From contig CM035357.1 in the NCBI GenBank assembly GCA_020137815.1, positions 6,758,001-6,822,000 of the forward strand: DNA of 64,000 bases, given 5' to 3'. The translations under genes and the position numbers were made by a program. Source of the DNA: Hormiphora californensis (lineage: Eukaryota; Animalia; Ctenophora). Shown here in pieces: positions 5,401-64,000 of this stretch; the stretch's first letter is position 1, and each line of letters opens with the position of its first letter. The notes below the pieces were generated by a model. It was given only the letters and a program-made list of their open reading frames with translations, did no database searches and had not been told where the DNA came from.

Positions 5401-8400
5401 AAAAGTAGGGCCAAAAAAAGCCAAAAAAAGCCAGACCCGCCCTAAAATCCGGGATTGATCTGGCTTTTTTTGGCCTTGGCCCCCCCCCATTATCTAAATC
5501 AATTGCTTTATTAGAGACTAAATCAGCAGTAGACAATAAGTCGATATAACCCCATTGCACTGGAAAGTGGAACTGAGGGCTAACAAACTCTTACCATTAC
5601 ACACATCTTACAGGTGGGATGAGTGCTGAAGACACCGTTAATGATCTAGCAGGTCGGATCCTGGGTGGGATGCCACCCCAATTTGATCTGGCCGCGGTTT
5701 ACGAGGCATTCCCTATCCTATACGAGGACAGTATGAACACATGCCTCAGACAGGAGTGTATCAGGTAAAAAGAGGTGTTATAACTCTGAAAACTAGGTTC
5801 CACCAGATAACAGATACCATGGGTCACAGCTAATTGGAAACTTACCCAGTTTTAACAACTCAGGGGCTCTTCGACGAAACTTTAAGCACACTTAAAAACG
5901 TTGCGTAACTCTCCTTTCACACCTTCTAATTGATTTTCACACCCCTTAAGCATGGTTTGTGTCGACGAAACTTTTTAGGAATCTTGCTTAGTGAAAATTG
6001 AGGGGTAGTAAGTGAAGTTTTACACAAGCTCTCCAAACCTTGCGTAACTCCCTAATCACGTGGTAAAATCACGTGATTTGGGTCAAATTGAAGCGACAAT
6101 GACGTCATAGTTCACGCAATATCTCACTCAAATATCGAGTAAAGTGAGGTTTGTTAAGTCTCCTCGAGAGGAGACTTAATGGTAGACAAGACAGCGCTGG
6201 CAAGTAAAAGATGCTACAAAACAGTGTATATTTTGCTTCTCGCATGTAGATAAAAGACAAAATGGCACTCCTTGTCCCCCAGTTAGCTATCTCTACTCAA
6301 CCACAATATTGAGGCACTAGTTTGGGGTTTCAGCCAAGCCCATGCTGCATACACATTACACCATCTGTATTAGACTCTCACAGTCACAGATAAGATGTGG
6401 ATGAACTCAGTTGTTTTCCTTCTGGCAGGACAAGATGAACAGTGAACTACTACTATACTTATACTGTTTATCTCTTCATTTAGCAGCCTATCTATTCATC
6501 TCACCCGGCCTAAATAATATTGCAAGTTATGAGTGTATAGGTTTATTGATTTTTCATAATGATTAATGAACAATCAATGTTAGATCTCTATTTGTCCGCT
6601 ATAACATGCATTGCCAGCTACTGTAAGATTACACAGAGCTTTGAAGATTTGAAATTTCTTGAATCTTGAGAAATGGAAGTCAAACTTCTTCTTCACCCCC
6701 AATCTGGTGTGATATCTCGCTAACACTATTGGCTGGTGAACCCTACACGTGACCAAATTGACGCCTGTGTAAACCCATGTAATGGAAATCCTATCACGTG
6801 TCCAGTTTCGATCCCCTGATTGGTTTTCTACACCCATACACGAGGGGTGATCCGGGGCTTCACGTGGTATACACGTGGTTCACACCAAGGACCTAAAGTG
6901 AGGTTTTGGAAAGCGTTCGACGACACCCCTCTCGAGACAAGTCTGAAAAATTTTCCTTGTGTAACTCTAAAGAGAGCTTATTTATTAAGTGTGCTTAAGG
7001 GTACACCTGGCGTTTTTCATCATCGAGTGCCCAACCAAATGACTTCACCAGGGTTTAGGCCATACAAAATGGACCTCAAATATGCAATTTTAGCCCTAAA
7101 GTTGAATTCATATTTTTGCTACAGCCTATTTTCAAAGTGGCGTTTTTTCAATTTTTGGTGGAATTTTTAACCTCAGGACCACTTTTTTTGAGATAGAAAC
7201 ATTAAATTCTTGGAATTTGAAGAGAATATAAAGGTAAATAAGCCCAAAGAAGGATTTTTGAAATGGAGCTAATTTATGGCCATGAGAACGGTTTACTTTT
7301 TTGCTTCTTTGACACGCTGGCTGAGAATGTTCCCATGCTTCATTAGAGATGAAAATCTGGAAATAGTTGCTCAAAACGATTATCTATGTGGCCCAAAAAT
7401 TTTGGAACTTTCCCGTCAAAGATGTGGTGTACAGAGCTTGTTTTGTGAAACCCATCTTTTTGAAAAAGAGGGAGATTCCCTGTATCTCAAAAACGGATGA
7501 TCGTAGAGACCTGCGACCAAGCTTAATCGATTCAGAAGGTCCGATTTTGGGGGGGTCTTCTGAGAGACATTTTGCTCCTACTCCAACCGTTTTTGCTGTA
7601 CTTGCAAAAAACCAATTCTATGAAAAGGGGGAACAACTAAATTCCAGTAGCCTGCTTCGGGCTGATTTCCCCCTTACTTGCTGATAGCTTTTTCGCAATT
7701 ACAGCAAAAACGGTTGGAGTAGGAGCAAAATGTCTCTCAGAAGACCCCCCCAAAATCGGACCTTCTGAATCGATTAAGCTTGGTCGCAGGTCTCTACGAT
7801 CATCCGTTTTTGAGATACAGGGAATTTCCCTCTTTTTCAAAAAGATGGGTTTCACAAAACAAGCTCTGTACACCACATCTTTGACGGGAAAGTTCCAAAA
7901 TTTTTGGGCCACATAGATAATCGTTTTGAGCAACTATTTCCCGATTTTCATCTCTAATGAAGCATGGGAACATTCTCAGCCAGCGTGTCAAAGAAGCAAA
8001 AAAGTAAACCGTTCTCATGGCCATAAATTAGCTCCATTTCAAAAATCCTTCTTTGGGCTTATTTACCTTTATATTCTCTTCAAATTCCAAGAATTTAATG
8101 TTTCTATCTCAAAAAAAGTGGTCCTGAGGTTAAAAATTCCACCAAAAATTGAAAAAACGCCACTTTGAAAATAGGCTGTAGCAAAAATATGAATTCGACT
8201 TTAGGGCTAAAATTGCATATTTGAGGTCCATTTTGTATGGCCTAAACCCTGGTGAAGTCATTTGGTTGGGCACTCGATGATGAAAAACGCCAGGTGTACC
8301 CTTAAAGTTTCGTCGAAGAGCCCCAGCAATATGATTCATATTAGTCTAACATCTCTCTCCCATTCTAGGTACAACCGGCTAACAGCAGTTATCAAAGCGA

Positions 8401-19357: not shown

Positions 19358-22300
19358 ATGAATTGGATATTCCTCCTCCTCCTATCCTTGTTCACTCCAG
19401 GATTTAATACAGCACACACCAATAACTGGGCTGTAATAGTCGATGCGAGCCGGTACTGGTTCAACTATCGACATGTAGCTAATGCTCTATCTATCTATTA
19501 CTCTGTTAAACGACTGGGTAAGGTTTGACATGTAGATCATTTTATACAAAAAGAGAGGAAGAGATTCGAGAATTTGTTATTTCGCAATATTATTTCAAGA
19601 ATCCTGTGACGCGTCCTGATAGCTGCGCTTTTTCAAAATTGTTCATCCAGCCCTCTTGGAAAGACTAATTTCCTTGTTTCAGGTATCCCTGATAGTCACA
19701 TAATCCTGATGTTATCAGACGACATGGCGTGTAACCCTCGTAACCCCACGTCCGCTCAGGTAAGTACACAGGTCACGCTATCCCTTGGTTATGAAATTAC
19801 CCCTCATCGCGAGCCTAGCTCCCGGAGCGTAATAGGGGTGACTTCGTAACCCCGTGTAGGTCAAACCATCCCTGTCAAGTGTCAAAAATAGGGCCCCAAT
19901 TGTTAGTTGAGATAGTCCCGTCTTGGTAAAAGAAAGATAGCGACCTTTCCAGATTGTATCATTCGAGTCTCACAAGTTGTCCCTACTCAGAGCTGCTAGT
20001 GTTACCGATGTAGAAAAGTCAACCCGAGTCTTGACAAACTTCCTAAAGCTGCTCATTCTTGCAAAATATATCATCGGGTTTACTGCCGCATTGATTGCCA
20101 CTAAATACACACTTCCCACACAGAGAAAAGTTCCAGTAAGGCGTACAAGCTTCACCCCGAATAGGATCTCTATATCGTAGTTAGTCATGAAGAGATAATG
20201 AGGTACATTGCATGTAAAGAAGAGGAGGATCATCAGAAATACCGTGTTAGCTGCCCGTTCCCTGTTCCTTACCTCCCGCTCCAGGCCCGGTGTAGGGGGT
20301 TGGGCAGAGCGTCGTTTCAGGAGGCAGAACGCTAGAAGTGAGCTGACTATAGTGGTTACCATGGGGATGGTATACATGGTAGAATACAGGAAGTGGTATG
20401 GAACCATTATACTCTCATCTAGACTTGTAACTGTCCAATCACACGTTCCTGTATATGAGGTATACACCCTCACCCCACTCCAATCGGGACTACTCTCATA
20501 CAGGATGAGGTAGGCCAAGACCGCCCCTAGGGATGCCCAAACTGCCCTAGGGGGAATGTGGCGGAAGGGATCGTAGACGGATATTAGGCGAGCTATGGAC
20601 AGGATGCATGTCGTGAAGATACTGAGACGAGAGAGAATATTCCACATCCAGCTGTAGGTGATACATGTGAAGGTCACGGAGGCTGTCTTGATGTCGTAAT
20701 CTGAAGGAATATTCATCAATTTAATAGCTGAAGGGTTTATCTGCTACTGATTTATTGACATGAACTACATAGGTGAATGGTGAATGACAACTGAGAAGTA
20801 CCTCTTACCCAGGATAATAAGAATGGCAGTATGAAGCATTAGAGCACACAACACAGAATCAGTCGCACTCAGCAACAAACAAATCTTATCTGAAAATAGT
20901 GGGTCATACAGATTAGGTAATACTAAAGAATACTGCCCGAACCGGTCTGAAGGCACTGTAACTTGTTCGAAAATGTATTCATAAGAACGGGGAGGGTGGT
21001 GTTGTATTCAACAAACCTGAGACAGTACTCTTGTATCTCCTGGTAAAGTAGGCCAGTGCCACCAAGTTGGCTGGTAGTCCAAACAGGAAACAGGAAAGAG
21101 CAACCAAACAGAGAACTGTTCGAATGATTGGAGACTCGCTAATTGCTGGTCCTCCTGCTGGGGCTTCAGGAGGAAACAAAATCATGATGGTGGCTAATGA
21201 AGTCGTTAATTAGGAGAAATGGTACTTATCAAATAGCTGCTTCTGGTAACTCTGACAGCTGAGAGTTACAGACAAAAGATTTAGTACTAAAATCAAGAAT
21301 GAAACAACGATAATAATACACCCGTTGCCGTTATTAGGAGAATTGATACATACCATAACACACAACGGACGCATGGTCCCTGTGAAATGGTTGCGAGAGA
21401 GCTGAAAGAAAAAAAAAGACAAAGGATGTAGCAGTAAAATCAAGAATGAAATTTTGACGTAGCATAATCGCTTTAACTCTTATAGTGTCTCCTGCCGTCT
21501 ATCCACCTGTCCCAAGGGTAGCGATGCGAGGTAGAGAAATATAGGGCCTACATAACATTTATCTTTCAGATTTAAAATCGAGAAATATATTTTCAGATTT
21601 TCAACAACAGAGATCGGCATGTTCAGATATACCCTGACGATGTAGAGGTAAAACTAAGCACATAGCAGTTAGCACCCCTTCCCTGGCACCTGTTACCATA
21701 TAACATATCAAGTTCAAGAGATAAAGATGAAAATGGCAGCTATATATAGCTGCCATTTTCATCTTTATCTCTTCAACTCATCTCAATCTCTTCCATTTCG
21801 ATTTCCCCCGTTCTTATCAAATCAAATCAATCTCAGTCTATCCCTAACTCTGCAATCATAAGAAATACCTCCTCCCGACCTCCCTCCTCTCAGATAAGTT
21901 TGAACCCTCCCTAGGTCGACTATCGAGATAGTGAGGTTACAGTTGAGAACTTCTTCCGAGTTCTAACAGACAGACTCCCCGAGGGTACACCACGGTCTAA
22001 GAGGCTAATGAGTGATGAAAACAGCAACATCCTAGTCTATCTGACAGGTATTATAGTCACTGGGATTTGTTGGTATGTTCTAGCCCTCCTTTACATTTGG
22101 AGCACACGGAAAGGGGTCGAGCTAGGCAAGGGATTTCATAATCAGGGAACAGCTGGTATGTTAGGAAATAATGCGTTGTTGGTCGAGATCTATGGGATAA
22201 CGGATAAATTTTATCAAAATATAAACCACCCCCCCTGCTGATATTTCCCGCAGTCTACTGTGGTATATCAAATAATTCCCTCCCTCTGTTTTCACACCTT

Positions 22301-24688
22301 TCATAATTCCCGGGGTCGTTTTATAAGAAATAACCACGGCTAGTAAAGTGATGAAATTTGATAATCCCCTACGGGGATTATCACACGATATTCCCCTCGT
22401 CACTCCGTTCCTCGTGGATATCGTATTGATATACCAGCCTAATAGGCTGGTATATCAGATTTCATCCCTCTACTAACCGGGTTTTTTTTTTTTTTTTTTT
22501 TTTTTCGTATCTTCTCCGCATCCATAGTTTTGCAAGGAGTTAACCTTTGTTTCTGTATCTCAAGGGCTGCCTTACAAAACATGAATTCACCGCGCCCCAT
22601 CTTGCCCTCTGTCTTTTCGACACGAACGCTGCACAGCCCTGCTCTCTCCGTCACATGAGTATAGACTGCTAATTGAATATCAACATTGATGGTTGCTCTT
22701 CAATCAAGAGTCGCACGAGAGAGCAGCATGGTTGTACAGCTAGACAACATGGTTTGGGATGGCATTAGTTCCGACGGCACAACCTTATACAGCGCTTGGC
22801 CAGCGCGGGGTGAACCTGCCAGGGCCGTCCCGACCACTCTCTTTTTTCAGAAAGAGCCTAAAATTTACGAGCTACAATTGGTAATTTGGGTCGGGGGCAG
22901 GTCGGTAGAACTTCGACAGAATTTAGGGTAGGTCAATTTAGGGTAGGTCAGAATTTAGGGTAGGTCAATTTAGGGTAGGTCTGAATTTAGGGTAGGTCAA
23001 TTTAGGGTAGGTCTGAATTTAGGCTAGGTCTGAATTTAGGGTAGGTCAATTTAGGGTAGGTCTGAATTTAGGGTAGGTCCGTAATGTATCAAAGCATTGC
23101 AATTCGACATTAGGTTCTGATTAGGTCGCTGAACCGCGTCCCGTATCTCATATCAACTCATTTCAATTCGATCTTAGTCACCGATTAGGTCGCTGAACCA
23201 CGTCCCGTATCTCGTGTCAACTCATTTCAATTCGAGGTTAGACACAAATTAGGTCCCTGAAACACGTCCCGTATCTCGTATCAACTCATTTCAATTCGAT
23301 CTTAGTCACCGATTGGGTCGCTGAACAGCGTCCCGTATCTCGTATCAACTCATTGAAATTCGAGGTTAGACACAGATTAGGTCACTGAACCACGTCCCGT
23401 ATCTTGTATCAAATCATTACAATTCGAGGTTAGACACAAATTAGATGGCAAACGAATTGTTTTTTTTTCTTAAACAGGTTTCAACTCAGGATGGAACTCT
23501 AAAAGTCTACGTACATTTATAAACTAATCAGTGAACAGTCAAACAGTCCTAATTTCATTTGATGCGATACGGAACACAGTCTACCGACCTAACTCAGTTC
23601 ACCTACTTTAAGTAGTACTTAGTGTCGATGGAATTGCAATGAGTTGATACGAGATACGGGACGTGGTTCAGCGACCTAATCAGAACCTAATCTCGAATTG
23701 CAATGATTTGATAAACGATACGTTACGGACCGGGGGGGGGGGGGGGTTCAGGATAAATGGTTCGGACGTATATGCCACTTAAGGGGGTGGGTGTTTTTTC
23801 AAAATTGCCACTTAGTGTTTTTGGCTAAATGGTCATTTTTTGGCCAAATTTGGTCAATTTTCGGCCAAATTTGGTCAATTTTCGGTAAAAATTGAGATTC
23901 TTCGAGGTGGACCTGAAAAATTTTCAATTTTTAAAATTCAAATTTCAATTTTATCGCGCCCGAAAATTTTTTCTGGAAATTTTTTGGTTTTGTTCCCAGA
24001 AAACAGCCTAAATTTTGCCTTTTTTGGGGCAAAAAAGCTAGTTTTTCGGTAAATTTTGGGGGTTTAGGGGTCTATTTGGGGTTTGACCACTAAAAGAAAC
24101 TGATTAAGTGGTCAATTTTAGGGGGTGGGGGGGTCCTTTTGGATTTTGACCACTTAAGCAATTTTTAGGCATATACGTCCGACCACTTAATCCTGAACCC
24201 CCCCCCCCCCCCCCCCCCCCCCGTACGGACCTACCTTAAATTCAGACCTACCCTAAATTCAGACCTACCCTAAATTCAGACCTACCCTAAATTCAGACCT
24301 GCCCTAAATTCAGACCTACCCTAAATTCAGACCTACCCTAAATTCAGACCTACCCTAAATTCAGACCTACCCTAAATTCTGTCGAAGTTCTACCGACCTG
24401 CCGGGTCGGGACTGCACCCTAGCAAGTGTAGTTGATAGAAGTAGGGGGAGAGAGAGAGAGAGAGTGAGAGAGAGAGAGAAAGAGGGAGAACGGATAAAAT
24501 CAGTATACACAATGTATAAAGGCAAGATCCGATCCCGGCTGGCTCCTACTGACATATATTAACAATATTATAAAATTCTTTGCTTCGGAGAAAAGAATTG
24601 AAATAGAAGAAAGAGGAGAGAGGGGGAAGAGGAGATAGAGAGGATAAAGGGGGGAAATTTTTTGGGAATTTTTTCGGGAAATTTTTTG

Positions 24689-24723
<35 letters not shown>

Positions 24724-24766
24724 CCCCCCCCCCCTTTTTTTTTTGGCCCCCCCTTTTTTTTTGGGG

Positions 24767-24799
<33 letters not shown>

Positions 24800-26751
24800 G
24801 GGGGTTTTTTTTTTCCCCCTTTTTTTTTCCCCCCCTTTTTTTTTAAAAATTTTTTTTTGGGGTTTTTTTTTCCCCCCCCCGGGGGTTTTTTTTTGGGGGG
24901 GGCCCCTACCAAAAATTCCTAAATTCCCAAAACTTTGAAAAATAACCTAGACAACGGGAAATTAGTTATGAAAGGGTTCATTCCCCCTGGACCAGGAAAA
25001 ACTTGGGAAACAGAGGACCTTTGGCTGTTAAGATGGTACTCCCTGTCCTGAAATTTAGGTTAAGGGAGGGGCCGGGGAGGGATTGAAAACGGAAAAGAAG
25101 GGGGAGGTCCCAATGCACCGTAGGCAAAGAAAGAGGGGGAAAGAAGAATGAGGAAGGGATGAACACAGCCGAAAGGAAGAAGATAAAAGAAGGTGAGTAA
25201 GTGTATAGAAAAGATACGGGAACAAAAGAGATCAGGGGGAAGAATAACGGGAAAGAAGGGGATAAAGTGCATCCAAAAAATAAGGGGAAGGAAAAATGAG
25301 ATTTGAAGATAAAAAGAAGTAACTGAAAAAGAAGGTGTGGCTGAATAGAATTCTTGCTGGAACATGAAATGATCTGGAACAGTTGAATGCTGAATTTGTG
25401 ATTTTCTCCAAATTTGCCCAACCCAACATACAGATTTATTCACATCAATTGATCAGACACAGAACGTGATCTGAGCGTGGTATGATATGCTGAGCAATGC
25501 CTCGGTGAGCTAGTGAGTGGACGGGAGGCTGCTGAATTATAGGCCCCATGACACTCTCCGCTTAATGACAGTTTCCATGGGGGGCCTATCTAGTGACTTC
25601 ACTGTGGATGTGAAGGTGGCTGAGAAATGAAGGTGGCCGGGAGCTGCTCACCAACAGTAACATGCGATAAACGTGCTAAGTCAGCGACACAAAACCATAT
25701 AATTATGGACGCAACACTATAATGTACTACTCAGTTCTACTCTCTCGCAATCTCTTAATCAACCAAGGATTTGAATTTTGAACATTATGTACAACTGCAA
25801 ATTCATTATGAGTCATTTGTAGTGCGTTTATCAGTTGCATTGATTATAGTTAAACAATAAACATAGAGTTCTTATCCTGTTCAATTGTGTAGATTTGTAG
25901 TTGGTTGGGTGGTTCAAACACAAAGACAAGGGAGGGATGGTGCGAGGATGGTTTAGGGAGGGTATACGATTACAAAGATAAGGGACGATCAGACGATCAA
26001 CTTTTTCTACAATGCAAAGAGGGAAGTGAACTAACCGGGGTTATCTATATTATAAACCACCCCCCCTGTTGATATTTCCCGCACTCTACTGTGGTATATC
26101 AGATAATTTCTCCTTCACACTGTCGCTGTGAATTTCCCCCTTCATAATTCCCTTCCTTTTTTCCCGCCGTCTACAGTTCAAATGAATTTATACAGTTCAA
26201 ATTACATGAATACAGTTCAAATTACAGTTCAAATGTGAATAATAATAAAGAAACATAATCAATCTTTTGGGGGTGGTTTATAATAAATAACCCCACTGTG
26301 TGTCGGGATGAAATATGCGATATTCCCTTGCCTTCGGCTGCGGGAATATCAGCAGTTATTCCCTGCTCGCTCCGCGAGCAGTGGAATAACTGAACGATAT
26401 ACCACCCTGACAGGGTGGTATATCAGATTTCATCCCGACACACAGTGGGGTTATCTATATTATAAAATACAAATTACACATCACTAAGTTCACTAATAAT
26501 ATACCAGAACAAAAGGAACAACCCTTCTGGGGGTCACTATAACATGAACACCCTGTACACACATCTAATGAGGTGCAAAGGACGTGTCATGTATAATGAT
26601 AGCTAGACATAATGCATTTCTCGAGGAGTTGGACGACCAGCGTCATATGGAGAACCACCTGGAACACCTGGTCTAAACGTCCGCTCTATTTTATATCGCA
26701 TATAATACGGGGATCGCTTTCTCTCTCTCTCTCTCTCTCTCTCGCTCTCTC

Positions 26752-26821
<70 letters not shown>

Positions 26822-29489
26822 TCTCCCCCTCTCTCTCTCATCACATATATCACGTCCTGATACCATTGTTACGTGACGTGGGAGACGAAATCATCACCTG
26901 TGACCCATATTCAAAATGGAATAACATCCAGGGATGATCCTGAAATGAAACTGATACTACCGGCGAAACTGGGGTTACCCTGCTGCCATGGTACTATCGG
27001 TACAGAATAAGATATCCCTCACTTAATGGTATATTGATCTTTCACCTCATGAGGGTTGGGCCCTGGTGTTGCTCTATACTGATTATCCTCACTCCCCTAG
27101 TATAATAGCTCTGCCTGTTACTCCCACCTTCCATTAATCTATTCTATCTATTCTATATCACTGATTTACCCTTGCAGGTCACGGTGGGGATGGATTCCTC
27201 AAGTTCCAAGATACAGAGGAGATGAATGCCATGGAGCTATCTGATGTATTTCAACAGATGCACGAAAAGAAACGGTAATACCATGTAGTGTAATACCATG
27301 TGTCATGAAGCTTGAACTTTGGTGACACAGAGTACTACGTTGGTAACTTATCACTCCCCCCCCCCCCCCCCCCCCCGCTTTTGTTGTGTCTCTAATATCG
27401 CCAAGTTTTACCTATCCTGAATCCATTACTTGCGTAATCCCTGCGTATCCCTTGCGTATTCTATGCGGAACCATAGCGTATTCCTTGCGTATTCCTTGCG
27501 TATACCTTGCGTTTTCCTTGCGTAATCCTTGGGGGGGGGGGCGACATGTTAATTGTTAATAAATCACCTCTTTTTTCCGATTTTGTTAATTAACGTTAAT
27601 TAACAAAATTAACAAAGTTAACAAATCAGCAAAAACTGTTCTTATTGGTTGATAATACGACTTTAACTGGTTTAATTTTATAGTTTAATGACTTTTCTAA
27701 CACATATATACCCAAACAAGGCCTCTTCCGATAACCAAAGTCCGACATACATGTTTTTTGGCTCAAAATCGATAAAATCCAAAAGTTAAAAATATTTCAA
27801 TTTAGCGTATAAAATCTCACTTTAACGTGATTTTTTCATCGATAATCGATTCTTTGAACGAATGAAGATGATGTACAACGTTTCTGTCGGAAAAATAAAC
27901 AAAATATTTCCAAAATCAATTTTTTGGTCAAAAATTGAAAATTTGCTTCGCTACAAATCCTTGTGTTTTTTTAGAAAAATTGATTTTTGGGATATTTTTG
28001 TTTTATGGTAAATTCATGAGTCTCAATTAGTTTTTAGGGTTTAAAAAAGGTGGATTAGGGTCAATTGACTTCAATTGCGGTTTAGTTTGGCTAGTTTTTA
28101 TTAAAATTTACACAATGGAACAAATCGCTGTAGAAAAGCCGTAGTAGAGGTTAGTAGGAGTGTGCAAATCGTGCAAGAGGAACAACTTTGCTCGCAGAAC
28201 AAGTGTTAAATACCAAAAACACGCGCTTAAGGTGATTTAGATGGCATAAATGGCATTTGTTAACGTTTGTTAACTTTTTGTTAATTTTGTTAATAAATCA
28301 CCTGTTTTCTCGATGTTAATATTAACAAAGTTAACAAAATTAACATGTCGCACCCCCCAATCCTTGCGCTTTTTAGAAAATGGAGAACCCCGTGAGTACC
28401 CCATTTTATCCCAGGTATAACGAGTTATTGTTCATGATAGACACGTGTCAAGCTGGGTCCATGGTCCTACCCATCAAATCACCCAATATCATTGGGGTGG
28501 GGTCCAGTACAGTAGGACAGGACTCCCTCTCTCACCATGGTGACCATGAAATAGGTATTATTGGGTTTGGTTACAGCAACCTTTTCATAAAACTAATCGA
28601 CTGAAATTTCATCTCTGAAGGATTTTGACTTTTAGAAATATACCATGGAAATCAGAAATATTTCTGTTGAACCAATGTATCAACATTTCCTAGGTGTGTA
28701 TGTGATAGACAGGTGGACTTATTACACCCTGGATTTTCTGGAGAAGATCCGACCTAACAGCCAGGCCAAACTGAAGGAACTATTCAGGTGAGTCCTGGAA
28801 ATTTGCCAGTAATACCAGGACTCTAATAGCGTTTTTTGTCGGAATGTTTTGACTTGCCTCTTATGTCTGGTTTAGCGAGTGTGGGTGTGGGTAATCCTCT
28901 AACCAAGTTGTTGCTTGCGTGCGAAAAATATTTTGTTACACATTGCCAGCTTGTCTGAAGAGGTCTTCTTTTGTTCTTTCATCCAAGCTGGACTCCTTGT
29001 TTGGCTACAGTTTTATTTACATCGCAAGGAAGCTTATTTTTTCTTTTCCTTGTATGTACTGCCAGGCCAATGCTCTGACAGTCCTAGTGGCCAATCAGAC
29101 AGCAGCTCCCTCAAACTACACCCTCTTTCACCCCCAGCTCCCTCAAACTACACCCTCTTTCACCCCCAGCTCCCTCAAACTACACCCTCTTTCACCCCCA
29201 GCTCCCTCAAACTACACCCTCTTTCACCCCCAGCTCAAACTCCACTCTCTTTTTCAGGGTCTACTCTACGGCGGATATCCGATCAACACCCCAATATTCC
29301 AACCTGAAACTCTTCAACTCCCGGCCTATTGACAAAATTCTCATCACTGACTTCTTCGGGAGTGTTCGGCAGACGGTTCTGTTTAACGAAGGGACGGTGG
29401 AAGAGGCGTTAGCACAACGGACAGTGGGGGAAGAGGCGCTGTTTTTGGTACCGAACAATCTGGAATTAGTATCACAACTTCCCTTTTAA
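19358..29489 (+). CDS. PIGK: GPI-anchor transamidase catalytic subunit (GPI8, peptidase C13)
   Basis: [68 protein letters not shown]. Exons about 19358-19517, 19683-19759, 21597-21647, 21915-22047, 27178-27274, 28415-28554, 28694-28787, 29258-29489. Confidence 0.95.
19970..21185 (-). CDS. Orphan rhodopsin-class (class A) GPCR nested antisense in PIGK intron 2
   Basis: Exons 21185-21017, 20889-20809, 20727-19970. TM motifs FGLPAN (TM1), LSATD (TM2), SIARL (DRY position), CNVP (TM6), NAAVNPMIY (TM7). Confidence 0.9.
21716..21773. repeat. Perfect 58-bp palindrome in PIGK intron 3
   Basis: AAGAGATAAAGATGAAAATGGCAGCTATA|TATAGCTGCCATTTTCATCTTTATCTCTT. Confidence 0.95.
22200..22481. mobile_element. 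Multi-hairpin non-autonomous element (Crypton-like), copy 1
   Basis: TATAAACCACCCCCC inverted-repeat module, then an outer stem enclosing three hairpins; homologous to 26030-26465. Confidence 0.55.
22820..24421. mobile_element. Fold-back-like element with inverted subterminal arrays
   Basis: Imperfect ends CAGGGCCGTCCCGACC / GGTCGGGACTGCACCCTA; AATTTAGGGTAGGTC(TG) arrays mirrored at both ends; about six internal copies of a 62-bp unit at 23100-23450, with an inverted copy near 23630-23700. Confidence 0.75.
23731..24223. mobile_element. Poly-G/poly-C-capped TIR element nested in the fold-back element
   Basis: C-G15-TTCAGGATAAATGGTTCGGACGTATATGCC ... GGCATATACGTCCGACCACTTAATCCTGAA-C25-G; TSD TACGGAC. 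Confidence 0.85.
26030..26465. mobile_element. Multi-hairpin non-autonomous element (Crypton-like), copy 2
   Basis: Sites GGGGTTATCTATATTATAAACC, GGTTTATAATAAATAACCCC and GGGGTTATCTATATTATAA; outer stem 26278-26314 / 26427-26465 enclosing three hairpins. Confidence 0.6.
27531..28358. mobile_element. Poly-G/poly-C-capped TIR element inserted in a CCTTGCGTATT array
   Basis: G11-CGACATGTTAATT ... AATTAACATGTCGCA-C6; TSD AATCCTT(G). Confidence 0.85.
29103..29250 (+). repeat. 32-bp tandem repeat abutting the last PIGK acceptor
   Basis: CAGCTCCCTCAAACTACACCCTCTTTCACCCC, four copies plus a partial copy. Confidence 0.9.
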
Positions 29490-47889: not shown

Positions 47890-50800
47890 ATGAAGTTCAC
47901 CGTCAAAACTATCAACTCTAATCGCTATGAGTTTGAGGTTGACGAGGACGAGACGGTGGAGAGCTTAAAACAAAAACTGCAAGAGAAAACAAACATTGAT
48001 CCCGCTCGACAGAAACTCATATTCCTGGGGAAGGTGCTGCAAAATCAGAAGAAACTAGCTGAATACAATGTCGATGGGAAGGTGTTACATTTAGTTGAGA
48101 GTGCATCAGGGGCTGGTGGTCCCTCTGGAGGGGCTGCTCCTCAACGAACCAACTCCACAACAACGTCTAGTACCCAACACAGCCATGGGACAACAACAAG
48201 GGTAAACCAGGAAGCAACAAGAGAAGCAAACCGTATGATGGACCAGATTATGTCGAGTTTGGGTGTTGATGTTAACCAGGCTAGGTATGCAACTTGTTTG
48301 TGTTAGTCATATCCACATATTATTCTGAATCTTCCTATACTATGATCCGATTATCTTTCGATATCACCAAGTTCTCTTGTTATGATATAGTGATGATATT
48401 ATTTTCTCCCTAGTGTAACTCGACACAATCTGGGAAATGGAAGTGTTGCTTTGAATATGAGTGTAGCGAGTGGTACTAACGAAGAAGTTGACATACAGAT
48501 AATAAACAGTACAACTACCCAAGGTACAGCCATGTAGAGAAAGTTCGTTTTTTACATGACTTGAAAATTGTCTGATTTCTGTTTTTGTTAACCCACTAAA
48601 ACCCTTTCAGAAGTTCCCACTACTACCACGACAGAAGGGGGATCCCAGCAAAACTCCACTACCTCTACCAGCAGTACAACTAGCAGTACAACTAATACCT
48701 CCCAACCAGGGGGCAGCACTGGTAGGAGAGGTCCACCCCCAAACCTAGAACGAGTCATTGGCCACCTCCGATCAGTTCGAGACTTGATGCAACATATCAA
48801 CTGCACCACCCCAGCCGCACAAGATGTCGTCAGCTCCGTCCTGATGCAGCCGTGTATCAGGGGTCAGCACACAACAGGCCCCAGTGTGGAACAGGGAGCC
48901 ACACCGGAGGAGGTTCAACAGAGAGCTAATAGCAGGGAAACTATTGAAACATATGCCCACATAATGATAGACATGGCTGATATAATGCAGGAACTGGTGC
49001 GATACATGAACCAGTACGCTAAGCTACTACACAGGGATCCCCCGCTTACTGGAGGAGACTTGGTCCATTGCCAGAATTTAGTTGACAGGCTGGGTATGGT
49101 GTTTCACGAGATATCCCATGCCTTCCACTCCCTATCTGACTATAGTATCACACTTGACTCACCCCTCCCTCGGAGGCTATGGATGGCCCAAATTGCGGGA
49201 GCTCACCAGATTGTAGTTGAGGCCCGGGATGCGAATGGGCAACCCCAACAGATGAGACAAGAACTAAACATGTTGCAACAACAGTTGAGGAATCTAGGTG
49301 GTGGGGTGGGTGGAGCTGCTAGGATGACTGGTAACTTCGGAGCTAATACACCGCAATTCAGGATCGGACCGGAGGGTCAGCGTCTTGGTTTTGGGAGGGG
49401 TACAGCAAGAGCCCCAGGAGGTCCAGGAGCTGCCCCAGGGGGTCCAGGAGCTGCCCCAGGTTCGGGGGCTCCTAGTGCACCTGGTGCCCCTAGTGCACCC
49501 GGTTTTGGGAGAGCCAGACCTGCCCCACCATCCTCCCAACCCCAGCAACCTGGAAGGGGTCCAGCTGCAGCTGCACCACCATCCTCCCAGCAGGGTGCCA
49601 CTCCAAACCAACCCGGTACAACTCCAAACCAACCTGGCACCACTCCAAACCAACCCCAGCCTGGTAACAATGGATGGGGAACACAATACTCCGTGTCCCT
49701 GGAGATGCCTGTAATGTCCCTGGGACGAGGTGGTCCAATTGGGGGAGTTGGGCAGCCCAATATCAGGGTCCAGACCACCCGGGGAGGGATACCTGGCCGG
49801 GGTCCAACAGGTAACATGACTCCCTCCACATCTCTAATCTGCCACTCCCGCCACAGCATCCCCTTTAATGCCCGGTGTCCAGTCCATCAGCAGGGTGGGA
49901 ACAATGCAGCTCCCCAACACGGGCATGTCCATCACGTTCATGGGCGGACCAGGCATGCCCACAGCCACAACCGTCCACCCCGGCCCCCGACAACGGGAGG
50001 TGCTACAACTGGAGGCCCCCAACAACAACCCCCAACCAGGCCCCCTCCTGCTGCCCCTACAATGGGAAACAACTTGATGCAACAAATGATGGCTACCCTA
50101 ACAGGGGATCAAGATCCAGAACGGGTTGGGAGGTACACAGCTCTCGCTGAACGGATGATGCGCCAACCCGACCAACCCATCGCCTCATTTTGGCCTCAAA
50201 TGAGAGAGGTTTGGGCGAGTGATATTGAAATACCTGATCCAAGTCGAGTTAGTGAGATGATGGAAATAGTTGGATCTCGATACACAGCTATGGAGCTGTT
50301 GAATGCCCTCCAAAATACTGCCATGTTTGATATCATCTACCAGCCTTTAAGATCTCATTTCACGGCGGCCATTTTCAATGATGCCGCACCTTCTGATCGC
50401 GAGATAGAGGAGGTCGTTGAGGGAATAACTACCCGAGAAAGGGAGCTAATTCTCGCTGCATTTGATTATAGATCAACAGCCGGTGGAAATATTGATGAAG
50501 GAGCAACCATTATCGTCATGGTGAGAGAGTTTCTGTGCAGTGTCTTCAGAAGTCTGTACAACACTACCAGGGGTGATATTGCTGCAGGGTTTGGGGGAGA
50601 GTTTGGGAGGGCTCTCATCAGGTTGATGAGTCTCTCGATGGCACTGAACAGGGAGGTAACAGATCCTAACTCAGACCAAGGCAGGATGATGGGTAGCCTC
50701 ATGCAGGCCATGAGGTACCTCCTCCCCATCCAGAATATCTCGTCAAGTGATCTGAACACCCGGTATATTGTCAGGAAGATCAGAACCCACCGCTCCTCAG

Positions 50801-51468
50801 CCCCCTCCTCCCACAGCACCAGAGGAGACCACCACCCCTCCTGCATGCTCCATCCCAGGATGACCCAGAGGAAGAGGAAGAGGAGTTTGTGGATGCATGA
50901 GGATGGTGGACCTCCACCTCTAGCGGATAGTAGTGTGGAGGAGGCCATGGAGGGTGTTACAAATGGAGATCTACCTGATGATGTCATACCAAGAAACACA
51001 GTTCCAGAGGTTCCAAGAAATGCAGTTCCAGCAGTTTCGAGGAACACAACTAGGAACAATGCAGCAGCTCCAGCAGTAGCAAGAGAGAGTGTTGTGCGAG
51101 GAGCAGCAGCAGCTGCAGCCCCTAAAACCACCCCAATCCCAGAGGAATGGAAGGCAGTGCTGGAAAAGGATGCCCAAGTGATCAGATCGACCAAGTACGG
51201 TGACCTATCAGATGGTTATGTTGGCAGTTTGCCAGCGAAACGGCGCCGAACAACCAAACGAAGCTCCGATAAACCTGACGAGATATTGGAGGAGCTGTTG
51301 GGTGCCAGTGGGGCTGGAACATCCGCAACCCCAGATCCAGAGTTACAGGCCATGTTTAGGGATAGGCTAAAGGAGGATCTGAGAAGGAAGATTAGAGATC
51401 ATAAGGGAGATATAGATGAGGGGAAGTTTCCTGCAGCAAGTGCTCTGGAGAAGGGTGAGAAGAAGTGA
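47890..51468 (+). CDS. BAG6: Large proline-rich protein BAG6 (UBL, proline-rich region, C-terminal BAG-similar domain)
   Basis: Exons 47890-48284 (UBL with QKLIFLGKVL and KVLHLVE), 48414-48523, 48611-51468. C-terminus IPEEWKAVLEKD..LSDGYVGSLPAKRRR..DLRRKI..KFPAA matches the BAG6 tail. Confidence 0.9.
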
Positions 51469-52428: not shown

Positions 52429-63050
<10,622 letters not shown>

Positions 63051-63097: not shown

Positions 63098-64000
63098 GGG
63101 TACGCTAACCAAAAATTTTTTTCGAGTGCAGGGTAATCTCTCACCGTAGGGTTGTAGGCCATGCCAAGGAGACCTCAAATACGCAATTTGAGCTCTCAAG
63201 TCGAATTCATATTTTTGCTACAGCTGCTTGAAAAATGAACTGAAAATAAGTTTTTGGCACCTCAAAAAAATTTTTTTAAAGATAGGAGCATGAAAATTTG
63301 GGGATTTGAAGAGGACATAAAGGTGAATAACCACAAAAAATTTTTATGCAATCCGAGCTGATTTCCGGTCCTGAGATGGATTTCTTTTTTTCCACTTTAA
63401 CGCCCTATTTGGCAAAGTTCCGAAAACATGTGAAAGCTGTAAATTGGTGAAAAGTTGCGTCTAACGATTATCTAAGTGGCCATAAATTTTGGGCGCGTCC
63501 TTATTTGAGATAAGCTGTACAGAGTTTTTTTTGTGAAAGCCGTCATTTCAGAAATAAATAAATTCTCTGTATCTCAAAAACGGCTGATCGTAGAGACCTG
63601 AGACTATGCTTAAACGACTCAGAAGGTCCGATTTTGGGGGGGTCTTCTGAGAGACATTTTGCTCCTACTTCAACCGTTTTTGCTGTAATTGCGAAAAACA
63701 AATTCTGTGAAAAGGGCAAAAGCTAAACTCCAATATCCTGCAATTAGGGAATTTTAGCTAAGAAAGGACCGAAACTATGGAAAAATGTGTAACAAGCTAA
63801 TTCCTTCACTATTTGGTCCATATGGGTCCTTATAATCACCAAAAACAAAATCACAAAAAATCCACGATGGCGAAGATGGGTTTTTGTTTTTCGCAATTAC
63901 AGCAAAAACGGTTGAAGTAGGAGCAAAATGTCTCTCAGAAGACCCCCCCAAAATCGGACCTTCTGAATCGTTTAAGCATAGTCTCAGGTCTCTACGATCA
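63098..64000. mobile_element. Diverged subfamily of the Kolobok/T2-type palindromic MITE, truncated by the window end
   Basis: TTAA-GGGTACGC start; inner arm CAGAAGGTCCGATTTTGGGGGGGTCTTCTGAGAGAC shared with copies 1 and 2; right arm begins near 63885. Confidence 0.85.

What the first reader, a model, noticed from the sequence alone, without database searches (positions are those of the whole stretch)
22200..26465. Covarying cloverleaf element with GNA triloops and recombinase-like sites, present twice in tandem
Seen: 22321-22481 and 26278-26465 share one fold (outer stem plus three hairpins) with different sequence, e.g. ACCAGCCT-aat-AGGCTGGT vs ACCACCCT-gac-AGGGTGGT, and different outer stems. 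Loops TAC, TTC and TCC read c-GTA-g, c-GAA-g and c-GGA-g on the minus strand. Modules are separated by near-palindromic sites GGGGTTAT-spacer-TATAAACC in alternating orientation, in an A-B-A-B arrangement. Established: cGNAg triloops are exceptionally stable in ssDNA, and tyrosine recombinases use folded ssDNA sites (integron attC, CTXphi attP). Inference: a non-autonomous Crypton-like element mobilised through folded ssDNA that reinserts at its own sites.
Basis: partly seen in the sequence, partly recalled or inferred. Interest (0 to 1): 0.75.

Follow-up and report, generated by a model that had tools for sequence, protein, structure and literature searches.

The report
Comb-jelly transposon with fold-back recombination site
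Two short mobile DNA elements sit head to tail in an intron of what is likely a comb jelly and are missing from that spot in another individual; their shape suggests that they are likely moved by a Crypton-type recombinase acting on one folded DNA strand, a route known from a cholera phage but not found for animal transposons in my searches.

Summary
The unit is module A plus cloverleaf B (273 and 410 nt), with TATAA at both ends. A public run holds the empty allele with one TATAAA, so the pair is a segregating insertion without terminal inverted repeats. The two units were adjacent until a 3.5-kb insert with a 10-bp duplication split them. B1 versus B2: 8 of 9 doubly changed pairs stay Watson-Crick; 4 of 6 hairpin tips are cGNAg and 8 of 9 mismatches favour the minus strand. 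An internal inverted copy of the end junction pairs with both ends (7-nt against 5-nt spacer); host targets tend to read TTAT-N6-ATAA; the crossover sits at one edge of the dyad. This is the layout of CTXphi attP(+) and of the DIRS ICR. Best reading: non-autonomous Crypton-type element using a folded strand (0.5). Not shown: the partner recombinase, circles, covariation beyond two copies. The scan already noted the same idea on three other genomes; new here are the empty site, target pattern and splint.

The parts
22048..27177 (+). Host intron (GT..AG) of a Peptidase_C13-family gene that holds the whole insertion; exons join in frame as ..[21 protein letters not shown] (GPI8/PIGK-like: name recalled)
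22211..22224 (+). Host target kept at the left junction: TTAT, 6-nt spacer, ATAA
   Evidence: empty allele
22220..22225 (+). Left copy of the shared word TATAAA (TATAA in all readable copies)
22226..22311 (+). Module A1 (short, commoner type by loose ends); first 58 nt 95% identical to A2
22312..22337 (-). Internal inverted site S'1, 5-nt spacer between TTAT and ATAA; A-side arm imperfect
22330..22481 (-). Cloverleaf B1: outer stem (continues at 26040-26044), hairpin 1 22359-22383 (cGTAg), hairpin 2 22385-22424 (tandem G.A, cGGAg), hairpin 3 22427-22457 (tATTa)
22472..22481 (+). First copy of the 10-bp duplication around the later insert
22482..26029 (-). Later 3548-bp insert: starts with poly-T, holds a nested foldback with 17-bp and 64-bp arrays, ends at a repeat end shared by other copies; likely a non-LTR retro-insertion; not part of the element
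26030..26039 (+). Second copy of the 10-bp duplication
26037..26064 (+). Tandem junction site S (B1 end joined to A2 start; 7-nt spacer); equals the junction a circle would have
26057..26268 (+). Module A2 (long type with a short internal tandem repeat at 26172-26234)
26269..26294 (-). Internal inverted site S'2, 5-nt spacer; predicted to pair with both the left end (26048-26064) and the right end (26447-26454)
26287..26454 (-). Cloverleaf B2: perfect 28-pair outer stem, hairpin 1 26319-26350 (cGAAg), hairpin 2 26353-26392 (A bulge, cGGAg), hairpin 3 26396-26424 (tGTCa)
26447..26466 (+). Right junction: element arm and 7-nt spacer, identical over 20 nt to the end of unit 1, ending in the right copy of TATAAA (26461-26466)

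Best explanation
These are two copies, from two subfamilies, of a short non-coding mobile DNA element that inserted head to tail at a TATAA word, and the element is likely a non-autonomous Crypton-type transposon whose recombinase, made elsewhere, likely acts on the folded minus strand. Shown: the unit is A + internal inverted site S' + cloverleaf B; both ends lie in TATAA; the empty allele has one copy of the word; the second unit sits in the junction that the first regenerates. Inferred: on one strand S' pairs with both ends at once. In the integrated copy this would bring the two junctions together so that one strand exchange at TATAA releases a single-stranded circle; in the circle S pairs with S' to build one dyad site with a 7-nt/5-nt bulged spacer on a three-hairpin stem; one strand exchange with a host TTAT-N6-ATAA site on the A side, finished by replication, would integrate it and leave the host spacer at the left junction and the element's own spacer at the right, as seen. 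The GNA-capped, G.A-rich hairpins would stabilise the fold and present the repeated GATA(T/A)..CC motif. An extruded cruciform would serve as well as free single strand.
For: Empty allele: in run X4 a contig of 453 nt, depth 57.1, minus strand, lies on 22049-22225 with its letters 277-453 and a contig of the same length, depth and strand lies on 26461-26560 with letters 183-282; the 6 shared letters are TATAAA. Run X1 holds both filled junctions at about half the flank depth (167 and 135 against 331-342). Loose ends of other copies fall at 26048-26051 and 26465-26466. No terminal inverted repeat in any of 5 readings of the ends (1 to 6 of 15). Covariation B1/B2 over 50 ungapped pairs: 38 unchanged, 8 changed on both sides and Watson-Crick in both, 1 changed on both sides with a G.T on the minus strand, 3 changed on one side (8 of 9, binomial p 0.001). 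Six of the 8 lie in a 10-pair stretch of the outer stem whose left arm is internal to the unit, not at a terminus. Strand bias: 4 of 6 tips cGNAg on minus, none on plus; 8 of 9 non-Watson-Crick pairs in B1 are G.T or G.A on minus (p 0.02, pairs not independent); circles fold lower on minus in both units (-50.6 vs -44.9; -95.8 vs -91.0). S' pairs with both ends at probability 0.74-1.0. Dyad: 8-nt arms match 6 of 8 around a 7-nt or a 5-nt centre but 1 of 8 around the shared word, so the crossover is at the dyad's edge. Targets: TTAT-N6-ATAA in 2 of 5 and T(T/G)A(T/C)-N6-ATAA in 4 of 5 readable left flanks (this locus plus 4 single-contig rows, read by eye) against 0 and 2 of 190 TATAA words elsewhere in the window. 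CTXphi has the same layout: two inverted sites that fold back on a branched hairpin, homology on one side only, one strand exchange, tandem copies (PMC3442271, PMC5357621 passages).
Against: No recombinase is linked to these ends: none in 170 window ORFs scanned with Pfam, no genome held, no relatives in viral, metagenome or prokaryote collections. Covariation rests on two copies; arms of inverted repeats can be kept alike by template switching without any function. Hairpin-3 tips are not GNA, one B1 mismatch favours the plus strand, and the A-side arm of S'1 pairs poorly with its partner. The energy gap between strands is small and also appears in the shuffles. The target sample is 5 flanks, one from a second organism; 4 blended rows were dropped, 55 loose-end rows were not shown, and the 6-nt spacer was chosen after looking. 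Kojima and Jurka found no terminal repeats in animal Cryptons (PMC3212892, section 8), whereas this element has one. GNA hairpins and short terminal direct repeats are equally typical of HUH elements. No circle was observed.
Confidence: 0.5

Rival explanations
1. Standard Crypton model: a non-autonomous tyrosine-recombinase element that leaves as a double-stranded circle and recombines over the 5-bp TATAA; S' and the hairpins are double-stranded binding sites, and their symmetry is kept by conversion between arms.
For: Ends match the published Crypton pattern (no TIR, 4-6-bp direct repeat, one copy from the target). Each stem begins with a related GATA(T/A)..CC motif, as inverted binding sites would. 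Starships and bacterial SE elements use double-stranded circles.
Against: The variable outer stem changes sequence but not pairing; the dyad is not centred on TATAA (1 of 8); tandem G.A pairs and cGNAg tips are confined to one strand; S' has a 5-nt spacer, below the 6-8 bp quoted for tyrosine recombinase sites.
Confidence: 0.2
2. A rolling-circle (HUH) element of the Replitron, IS200/IS605 or Helitron kind: the enzyme nicks one strand at TATAA and reads the hairpins.
For: HUH enzymes act on single strands and hairpins; Replitrons have short terminal direct repeats (PMC10288648 passages). GNA mini-hairpins occur at phage single-strand origins (PMC13037366 section 12). Strand bias and tandem copies fit as well.
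Against: In Replitron-1 both repeats belong to the element, the target is RG, and duplications and right ends vary; here one word comes from the target and the two readable right ends of other copies are sharp. Replitrons were reported in plants, algae and protists. Helitrons insert between AT or TT without a shared word. Targets imitate both arms of a dyad, which HUH nicking does not need.
Confidence: 0.13
3. A non-autonomous DIRS-like retroelement: an RNA copy is reverse-transcribed, S' acts as the internal complementary region that splints the cDNA ends into a circle, and a DIRS tyrosine recombinase integrates it.
For: S' is complementary to the start of the left end and the end of the right end, the definition of the DIRS ICR (PMC6681497 passage). 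A cDNA is a single strand of one polarity.
Against: DIRS-like elements have inverted terminal repeats; these ends are not. A1/A2 and B1/B2 are not identical, so split direct repeats do not apply. No reverse-transcriptase remnant.
Confidence: 0.1
4. B is an ordinary MITE of a DDE superfamily that sits next to an unrelated repeat A; the long stem is its terminal inverted repeat.
For: B is bounded by a 28-pair inverted repeat, and TA-rich words lie at its ends. The window is rich in foldback elements.
Against: The empty allele removes A and B together and joins at TATAAA; a 341-nt contig runs across A2, S' and into B2 at 14 times flank depth; a third variant also joins A to S' (table 5); none of the 24 loose-end rows shown marks the left end of B.
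Confidence: 0.05
5. A structured non-coding RNA gene or an intronic splicing element of the host gene.
For: The cloverleaf folds as RNA too and lies in an intron.
Against: The whole pair is absent in another individual; no Rfam match over either cloverleaf down to E 1; the favoured strand is antisense to the host gene; cGNAg triloops are a DNA motif (PMC13037366 abstract).
Confidence: 0.02

Closest known systems
Non-autonomous Crypton elements (CryptonA-1N1_OL, CryptonA-1N2_OL, CryptonI-1N1_RPro, CryptonS-N families; PMC3212892 passages, section 8 and Additional file 1) and salmon Crypton-N1_SSa / CryptonA-N2_SSa with Eulor5/6 (PMC5753468 passages)
   Same: Size 0.3-0.7 kb, no coding capacity, no TIR, short word at both ends with one copy from the target (TATAA here, TATGG in CryptonS). 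From memory, untested: fish and cnidarian non-autonomous Cryptons have the same long internal stem with GAA-tipped hairpins next to a TTATAAA site.
   Different: No terminal repeat was reported for animal Cryptons; the published model is a double-stranded circle and is stated to be undemonstrated (PMC13565253 passage); no passage I saw describes an internal inverted site, a cloverleaf, strand bias or a TTAT-N6-ATAA target. No sequence comparison could be run.
CTXphi attP(+) and related IMEX phages (PMC3442271, PMC5357621 passages)
   Same: Two inverted recombinase-type sites about 90-160 nt apart that fold back onto a branched hairpin; homology with the target on one side only; both sites stay at one end after integration; tandem copies at the regenerated site.
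   Different: Animal transposon, many degenerate targets instead of dif, no XerC/D, three hairpins instead of two; a route out of the chromosome must exist, whereas CTXphi integration is irreversible.
DIRS-like retrotransposon internal complementary region (PMC6681497 passage)
   Same: An internal segment complementary to the outer edge of both ends; tyrosine-recombinase-type junctions.
   Different: No inverted terminal repeats, no ORFs, 0.3-0.4 kb.
[quoted passage not shown]
   Same: Tyrosine recombinases that circularise one strand only, which would supply the copy-out step.
   Different: Bacterial, four core genes, double-stranded nicked circles, no fold-back site described in what I read.
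Replitrons (PMC10288648 passages)
   Same: Short direct repeats at the ends, a terminal hairpin, inferred single-strand chemistry.
   Different: Both repeats belong to the element, RG target, fuzzy right ends; not reported in animals.

Membership tests
Crypton (non-autonomous) | Shares its ends with an autonomous element that encodes only a tyrosine recombinase | not testable with these tools
   No genome held; no recombinase family among 170 window ORFs; no relatives with flanks recovered
Crypton (non-autonomous) | No terminal inverted repeats | tested here: met
   1 to 6 of 15 matches for five readings of the ends
Crypton (non-autonomous) | 4-6-bp direct repeat at the ends, one copy from the target | tested here: met
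   Empty allele holds one TATAAA, filled allele two; TATAA in both readable right ends of other copies
Crypton (non-autonomous) | Sequence likeness to described animal Crypton or Eulor5/6 termini | not testable with these tools
   No Repbase or Dfam library; Fig. 1c of PMC5753468 not viewable; likeness is recalled only
Crypton (non-autonomous) | Circular intermediate | tested here: inconclusive
   The tandem junction equals the predicted circle junction; one search listed no end-to-start joint, and contigs drop rare forms
CTXphi-type folded attP (works like) | Two inverted sites that fold back into one site on a branched hairpin | tested here: met
   S and S' pair with a 2-nt excess on S in both units; prediction only
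CTXphi-type folded attP (works like) | Homology with the target on one side of the spacer only | tested here: met
   Left junction keeps the host spacer, right junction the element's; shared letters are TATAA at the A-side edge
CTXphi-type folded attP (works like) | One strand is the substrate | tested here: inconclusive
   Tips and mismatches favour minus; energy gap small; no biochemistry
CTXphi-type folded attP (member) | Phage element that uses host XerC/D at dif | tested here: not met
   Animal intron; no match to 50,697 phage records
DIRS-like retrotransposon | Internal complementary region pairing with both outer ends | tested here: met
DIRS-like retrotransposon | Inverted terminal repeats | tested here: not met
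   A and B are not inverted copies
Ngaro / PAT split direct repeats | Identical A1/A2 and B1/B2 around a coding region | tested here: not met
   A1 and B1 are adjacent; B1/B2 79% and A1/A2 69% column identity
Replitron | [quoted passage not shown] | tested here: met
Replitron | Both repeats element-borne, RG target, variable duplication and fuzzy right end (Replitron-1) | tested here: not met
   One word is the target's; right ends at 26465 and 26466; n small
Helitron | Insertion between AT or TT with no shared word; TC..CTRR ends (end motifs recalled) | tested here: not met
   Ends read ACCACC.. and ..CTATAT with a shared TATAA
DDE MITE | TIRs at the insertion boundaries plus TSD | tested here: not met
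   The long inverted repeat has one arm inside the unit; true ends carry no TIR

The most novel reading that the evidence does not exclude
Animal Crypton-type transposons move by integron/CTXphi-like chemistry: one strand folds so that an internal complement splints both ends, a single strand exchange copies out a circle, and the same fold builds a bulged site that integrates one-sidedly into TTAT-N6-ATAA. The internal complement would be the DNA-transposon counterpart, and possibly the ancestor, of the DIRS ICR, and the pathway would be running now in a comb jelly population.
Probability: 0.4. Interest if true: 0.85.

Novelty: new variant of a known kind. Interest (0 to 1): 0.62.

Why it matters
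A 2026 review states that Crypton transposition has not been demonstrated and assumes a double-stranded circle (PMC13565253 passage), and animal Crypton ends were left undefined. This locus gives exact ends, an empty allele, a target pattern, two natural stem variants and a young family that differs between individuals, so the single-strand question becomes testable with short oligonucleotides and outward PCR. If true, folded-strand recombination would extend from bacteria to animal transposons, would link Crypton ends to the DIRS ICR, and would suggest a reading for the Crypton-derived Eulor5/6 repeats of vertebrates. The scan has raised the idea on three other genomes, so the idea itself is not new to the scan.

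Tried and rejected
Own genome: none held, so the planned census of copies and R-scape test could not be run. Relatives: viral scans with four element patterns gave 88, 1, 10 and 0 loci, none with the cloverleaf or the sites; the one metagenome scan gave 3 loci, none resembling the element; two prokaryote-genome scans gave 0; no phage match; no look-alike in earlier scan windows. Expression: no RNA holder listed; this says nothing either way. Rfam: no match over the element. An apparent 70-codon frame running into the left junction was rejected: it crosses the splice donor of the host gene. Split-direct-repeat retroelement, Helitron, MITE and ncRNA readings were weighed and set low. The hairpin-2 tip pattern in phages was followed up for a shared neighbour: flanking ORFs of 18 of 28 chosen loci were scanned (10 loci were too short) and gave mixed hits (terminase or portal 4 loci, integrase 2, viral Rep 1, others), so no function can be borrowed. 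Run X5 stops short of the left junction and run X3 was laid on one side only, so their alleles are unproven. The paper asked for is not held. Literature: searches found no paper proposing folded single-strand recombination for Cryptons; Repbase Reports, Dfam notes and subscription journals (Goodwin 2003, later Kojima reviews) are outside the library, and the supplements of the Starship preprint were closed.
Full report
Setting. The window is animal DNA (dynein heavy chain, WD40, 7tm_1, ubiquitin/BAG6 exons). Earlier AI notes on the same genome call it a comb jelly; I did not test that. No whole genome is held. The finding lies in an intron, 22048-27177, of a Peptidase_C13-family gene on the plus strand.

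Observation. Both cloverleaves fold far below shuffles. The quoted stems, loops and alternating sites are present. The two units are separated by 22482-26029, which begins with poly-T and is flanked by a 10-bp duplication found only at these two places in the window. The duplicated bases are the end of B1, and the bases after the second copy continue B1's right arm into A2, so the units were adjacent before this insert. Other copies of a repeat end at 26025-26031 in all four runs laid, so the insert is itself a mobile sequence.

Boundaries. Seventeen public runs were listed, six from the organism that holds half or nearly half of the words. Laid on 25960-26560, summed contig depth rises from the flank level (57 in X4, 136 in X5, 342 in X1) to hundreds of times that at 26065-26085 and at 26401-26442, and loose ends of other copies cluster at 26048-26051 and 26465-26466. 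A 341-nt contig with no substitutions runs across A2, S' and B2 at 14 times flank depth in X4; the long A2 contigs stand at about 9 times in X5 and 5 times in X1. Depth is not copy number, but it points to several near-identical young copies and a much larger family. A second organism (X7) matches the A start but not B2.

Empty allele. In X4 one contig (453 nt, depth 57.1, minus) covers 22049-22225 with letters 277-453; a contig with the same length, depth and strand covers 26461-26560 with letters 183-282. Records are numbered per call, so identity is inferred from these three matches and from the fit of the ranges. The overlap is six letters, TATAAA, the word at 22220-22225 and 26461-26466. 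Everything between is absent. X1 holds both filled junctions at about half flank depth, as a heterozygote would. Right ends of two other copies share TATAA but differ at the next base, so the common word is 5 bp. The true ends have no inverted repeat. This matches the published Crypton signature: no TIRs, 4-6-bp direct repeats (PMC3212892 passages and Additional file 1), one being the target (PMC13565253 passage). It rejects B as a MITE. Whether the empty allele is ancestral or a precise excision cannot be told.

Covariation. Over 50 ungapped pairs (outer stem 28, hairpin 3 13, hairpin 1 base 9) B1 and B2 share 38; 8 changed on both sides and stayed Watson-Crick; 1 changed on both sides to a minus-strand G.T; 3 changed on one side. 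Hairpin 2 and the top of hairpin 1 were left out of this count because they do not align without gaps. Eight of nine gives p 0.001 if the partner base were free. This is two copies, not a family test, and template switching between arms can give the same pattern. What it shows is that a stem with one arm inside the unit keeps pairing while its sequence changes.

Strand. Four of six tips are cGNAg on the minus strand, none on plus; background is 2 of 138. GCGNAGC-type mini-hairpins with a sheared G.A pair are unusually stable in DNA (PMC13037366 abstract and section 12; PMC3201870 search listing). B1 hairpin 2 on the minus strand has two tandem G.A pairs, a further G.A and a bulged A. Eight of nine non-Watson-Crick pairs in B1 favour minus. 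As an outside check, a 19-letter pattern made from that tip hit at least 122 viral stretches (126 matches, 58 clusters by flank identity); its two degenerate positions were complementary in 53 of 58 clusters (Fisher p 6e-7), against 15 of 23 (p 0.59) for a control with the loop letters swapped. So the tip is a real pairing module in unrelated mobile DNA; none of those loci shows this element's layout. Against: hairpin-3 tips are not GNA, one mismatch favours plus, and the minus-plus energy gap (1-6 kcal/mol) also appears in shuffles.

Sites. Between TTAT and ATAA the end junction S has 7 nt (both units, identical over 20 nt), the internal inverted site S' has 5 nt (both units), and the host target has 6 nt. 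Arms match 6 of 8 around a 7-nt or a 5-nt centre (a tie) but 1 of 8 around TATAA, so in either register the crossover lies at the A-side edge of the dyad. The left junction keeps the host spacer, the right junction the element's. Of 8 left-end rows, 4 are single contigs and readable; with this locus, 2 of 5 read TTAT-N6-ATAA and 4 of 5 T(T/G)A(T/C)-N6-ATAA, against 0 and 2 of 190 TATAA words in the window. The sample is small and the spacing was chosen after looking. Folded as one strand in place, S' pairs with both ends; folded as a circle, S pairs with S' with two extra bases on S.

Mechanism. Shown: ends, empty site, self-insertion, pairing pattern. Inferred: enzyme class, single-strand substrate, circle. 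The layout is that of CTXphi, whose replicative DNA has two inverted sites that fold back in the plus strand, exchange one strand pair with dif because homology is one-sided, and form tandem arrays (PMC3442271, PMC5357621 passages). It also meets the definition of the DIRS ICR (PMC6681497 passage) without the DIRS inverted termini. One-strand circularisation by tyrosine recombinases is known in bacterial SE elements. I put a tyrosine recombinase of some kind at about 0.8 and the folded-strand Crypton route at 0.5; rivals are the double-stranded circle (0.2), HUH (0.13), DIRS-like cDNA (0.1), MITE (0.05) and RNA gene (0.02).

Membership and novelty. It works like a Crypton at its ends and like attP(+) in layout. 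Membership of Crypton is likely but unproven, since the partner gene and sequence likeness to named families could not be tested; the likeness to fish and cnidarian non-autonomous Cryptons is recalled. Eight Crypton- or DIRS-directed searches found no paper with this model; the Starship circle preprint has no occurrence of 'single-stranded' or 'hairpin' in its main text. Repbase Reports and subscription papers were not searchable and may describe the structure. Three earlier AI notes propose the same idea for other genomes; they are leads, not support. Verdict: a real, young, segregating element; new variant of a known kind; interest 0.62.

Noticed in passing
L103-L224 (viral contigs; e.g. L107, L111, L176, L179, L204): A 19-nt hairpin with two tandem G.A pairs and a cGNAg loop recurs in 58 unrelated clusters of viral contigs, with a covarying inner pair (53 of 58; 28 of 28 outside long ORFs) and an excess of pairing just outside it (26 of 58). 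Neighbours are mixed: terminase, portal, integrase, viral Rep. It may be an undescribed general single-strand DNA signal of phages and plasmids.
   Followed up: partly
window 22065-22105: A stretch of about 40 bp just inside the same intron has summed contig depth near a thousand times the flank in all four runs, with many loose ends on both sides: a very high-copy short repeat, not identified.
   Followed up: no
window 22482-26029: The later insert hit the element 10 bp before its junction site; it has a poly-T start, no Pfam hit of note, a nested foldback (17-bp arrays at 22917-23079 and 24228-24379 in inverted order, 64-bp arrays at 23086-23444) and a run of poly-T/poly-C blocks at 24690-24900 that may be an assembly artefact.
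   Followed up: partly
window 22226-26466: An allele that still segregates carries at least four insertion events (two units, the insert, the nested foldback). In run X1 the insert-to-A2 junction has depth 259 against 135-167 for the outer junctions, a weak hint that the composite exists elsewhere and may have moved as one piece.
   Followed up: no
window 22235-22253 and 26338-26355: The conserved start of module A matches the reverse complement of the 3' arm of B2 hairpin 1 at 18 of 19 letters, suggesting a shared binding motif or an alternative pairing.
   Followed up: no
window 6995-8307, 56336-57651, 63141-64000: A 1.3-kb near-perfect palindromic element in two copies (95-98% alike) and a diverged third; the second is nested in a 443-bp inverted repeat (55901-56343 / 57720-58161).
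   Followed up: no
window 21711-21778: A 68-bp palindrome that draws many sub-threshold microRNA matches in Rfam; likely a small foldback repeat.
   Followed up: no
window 47890-51468: Ubiquitin-like and BAG6 domains in two long open frames, a BAG6-like gene with few introns.
   Followed up: no
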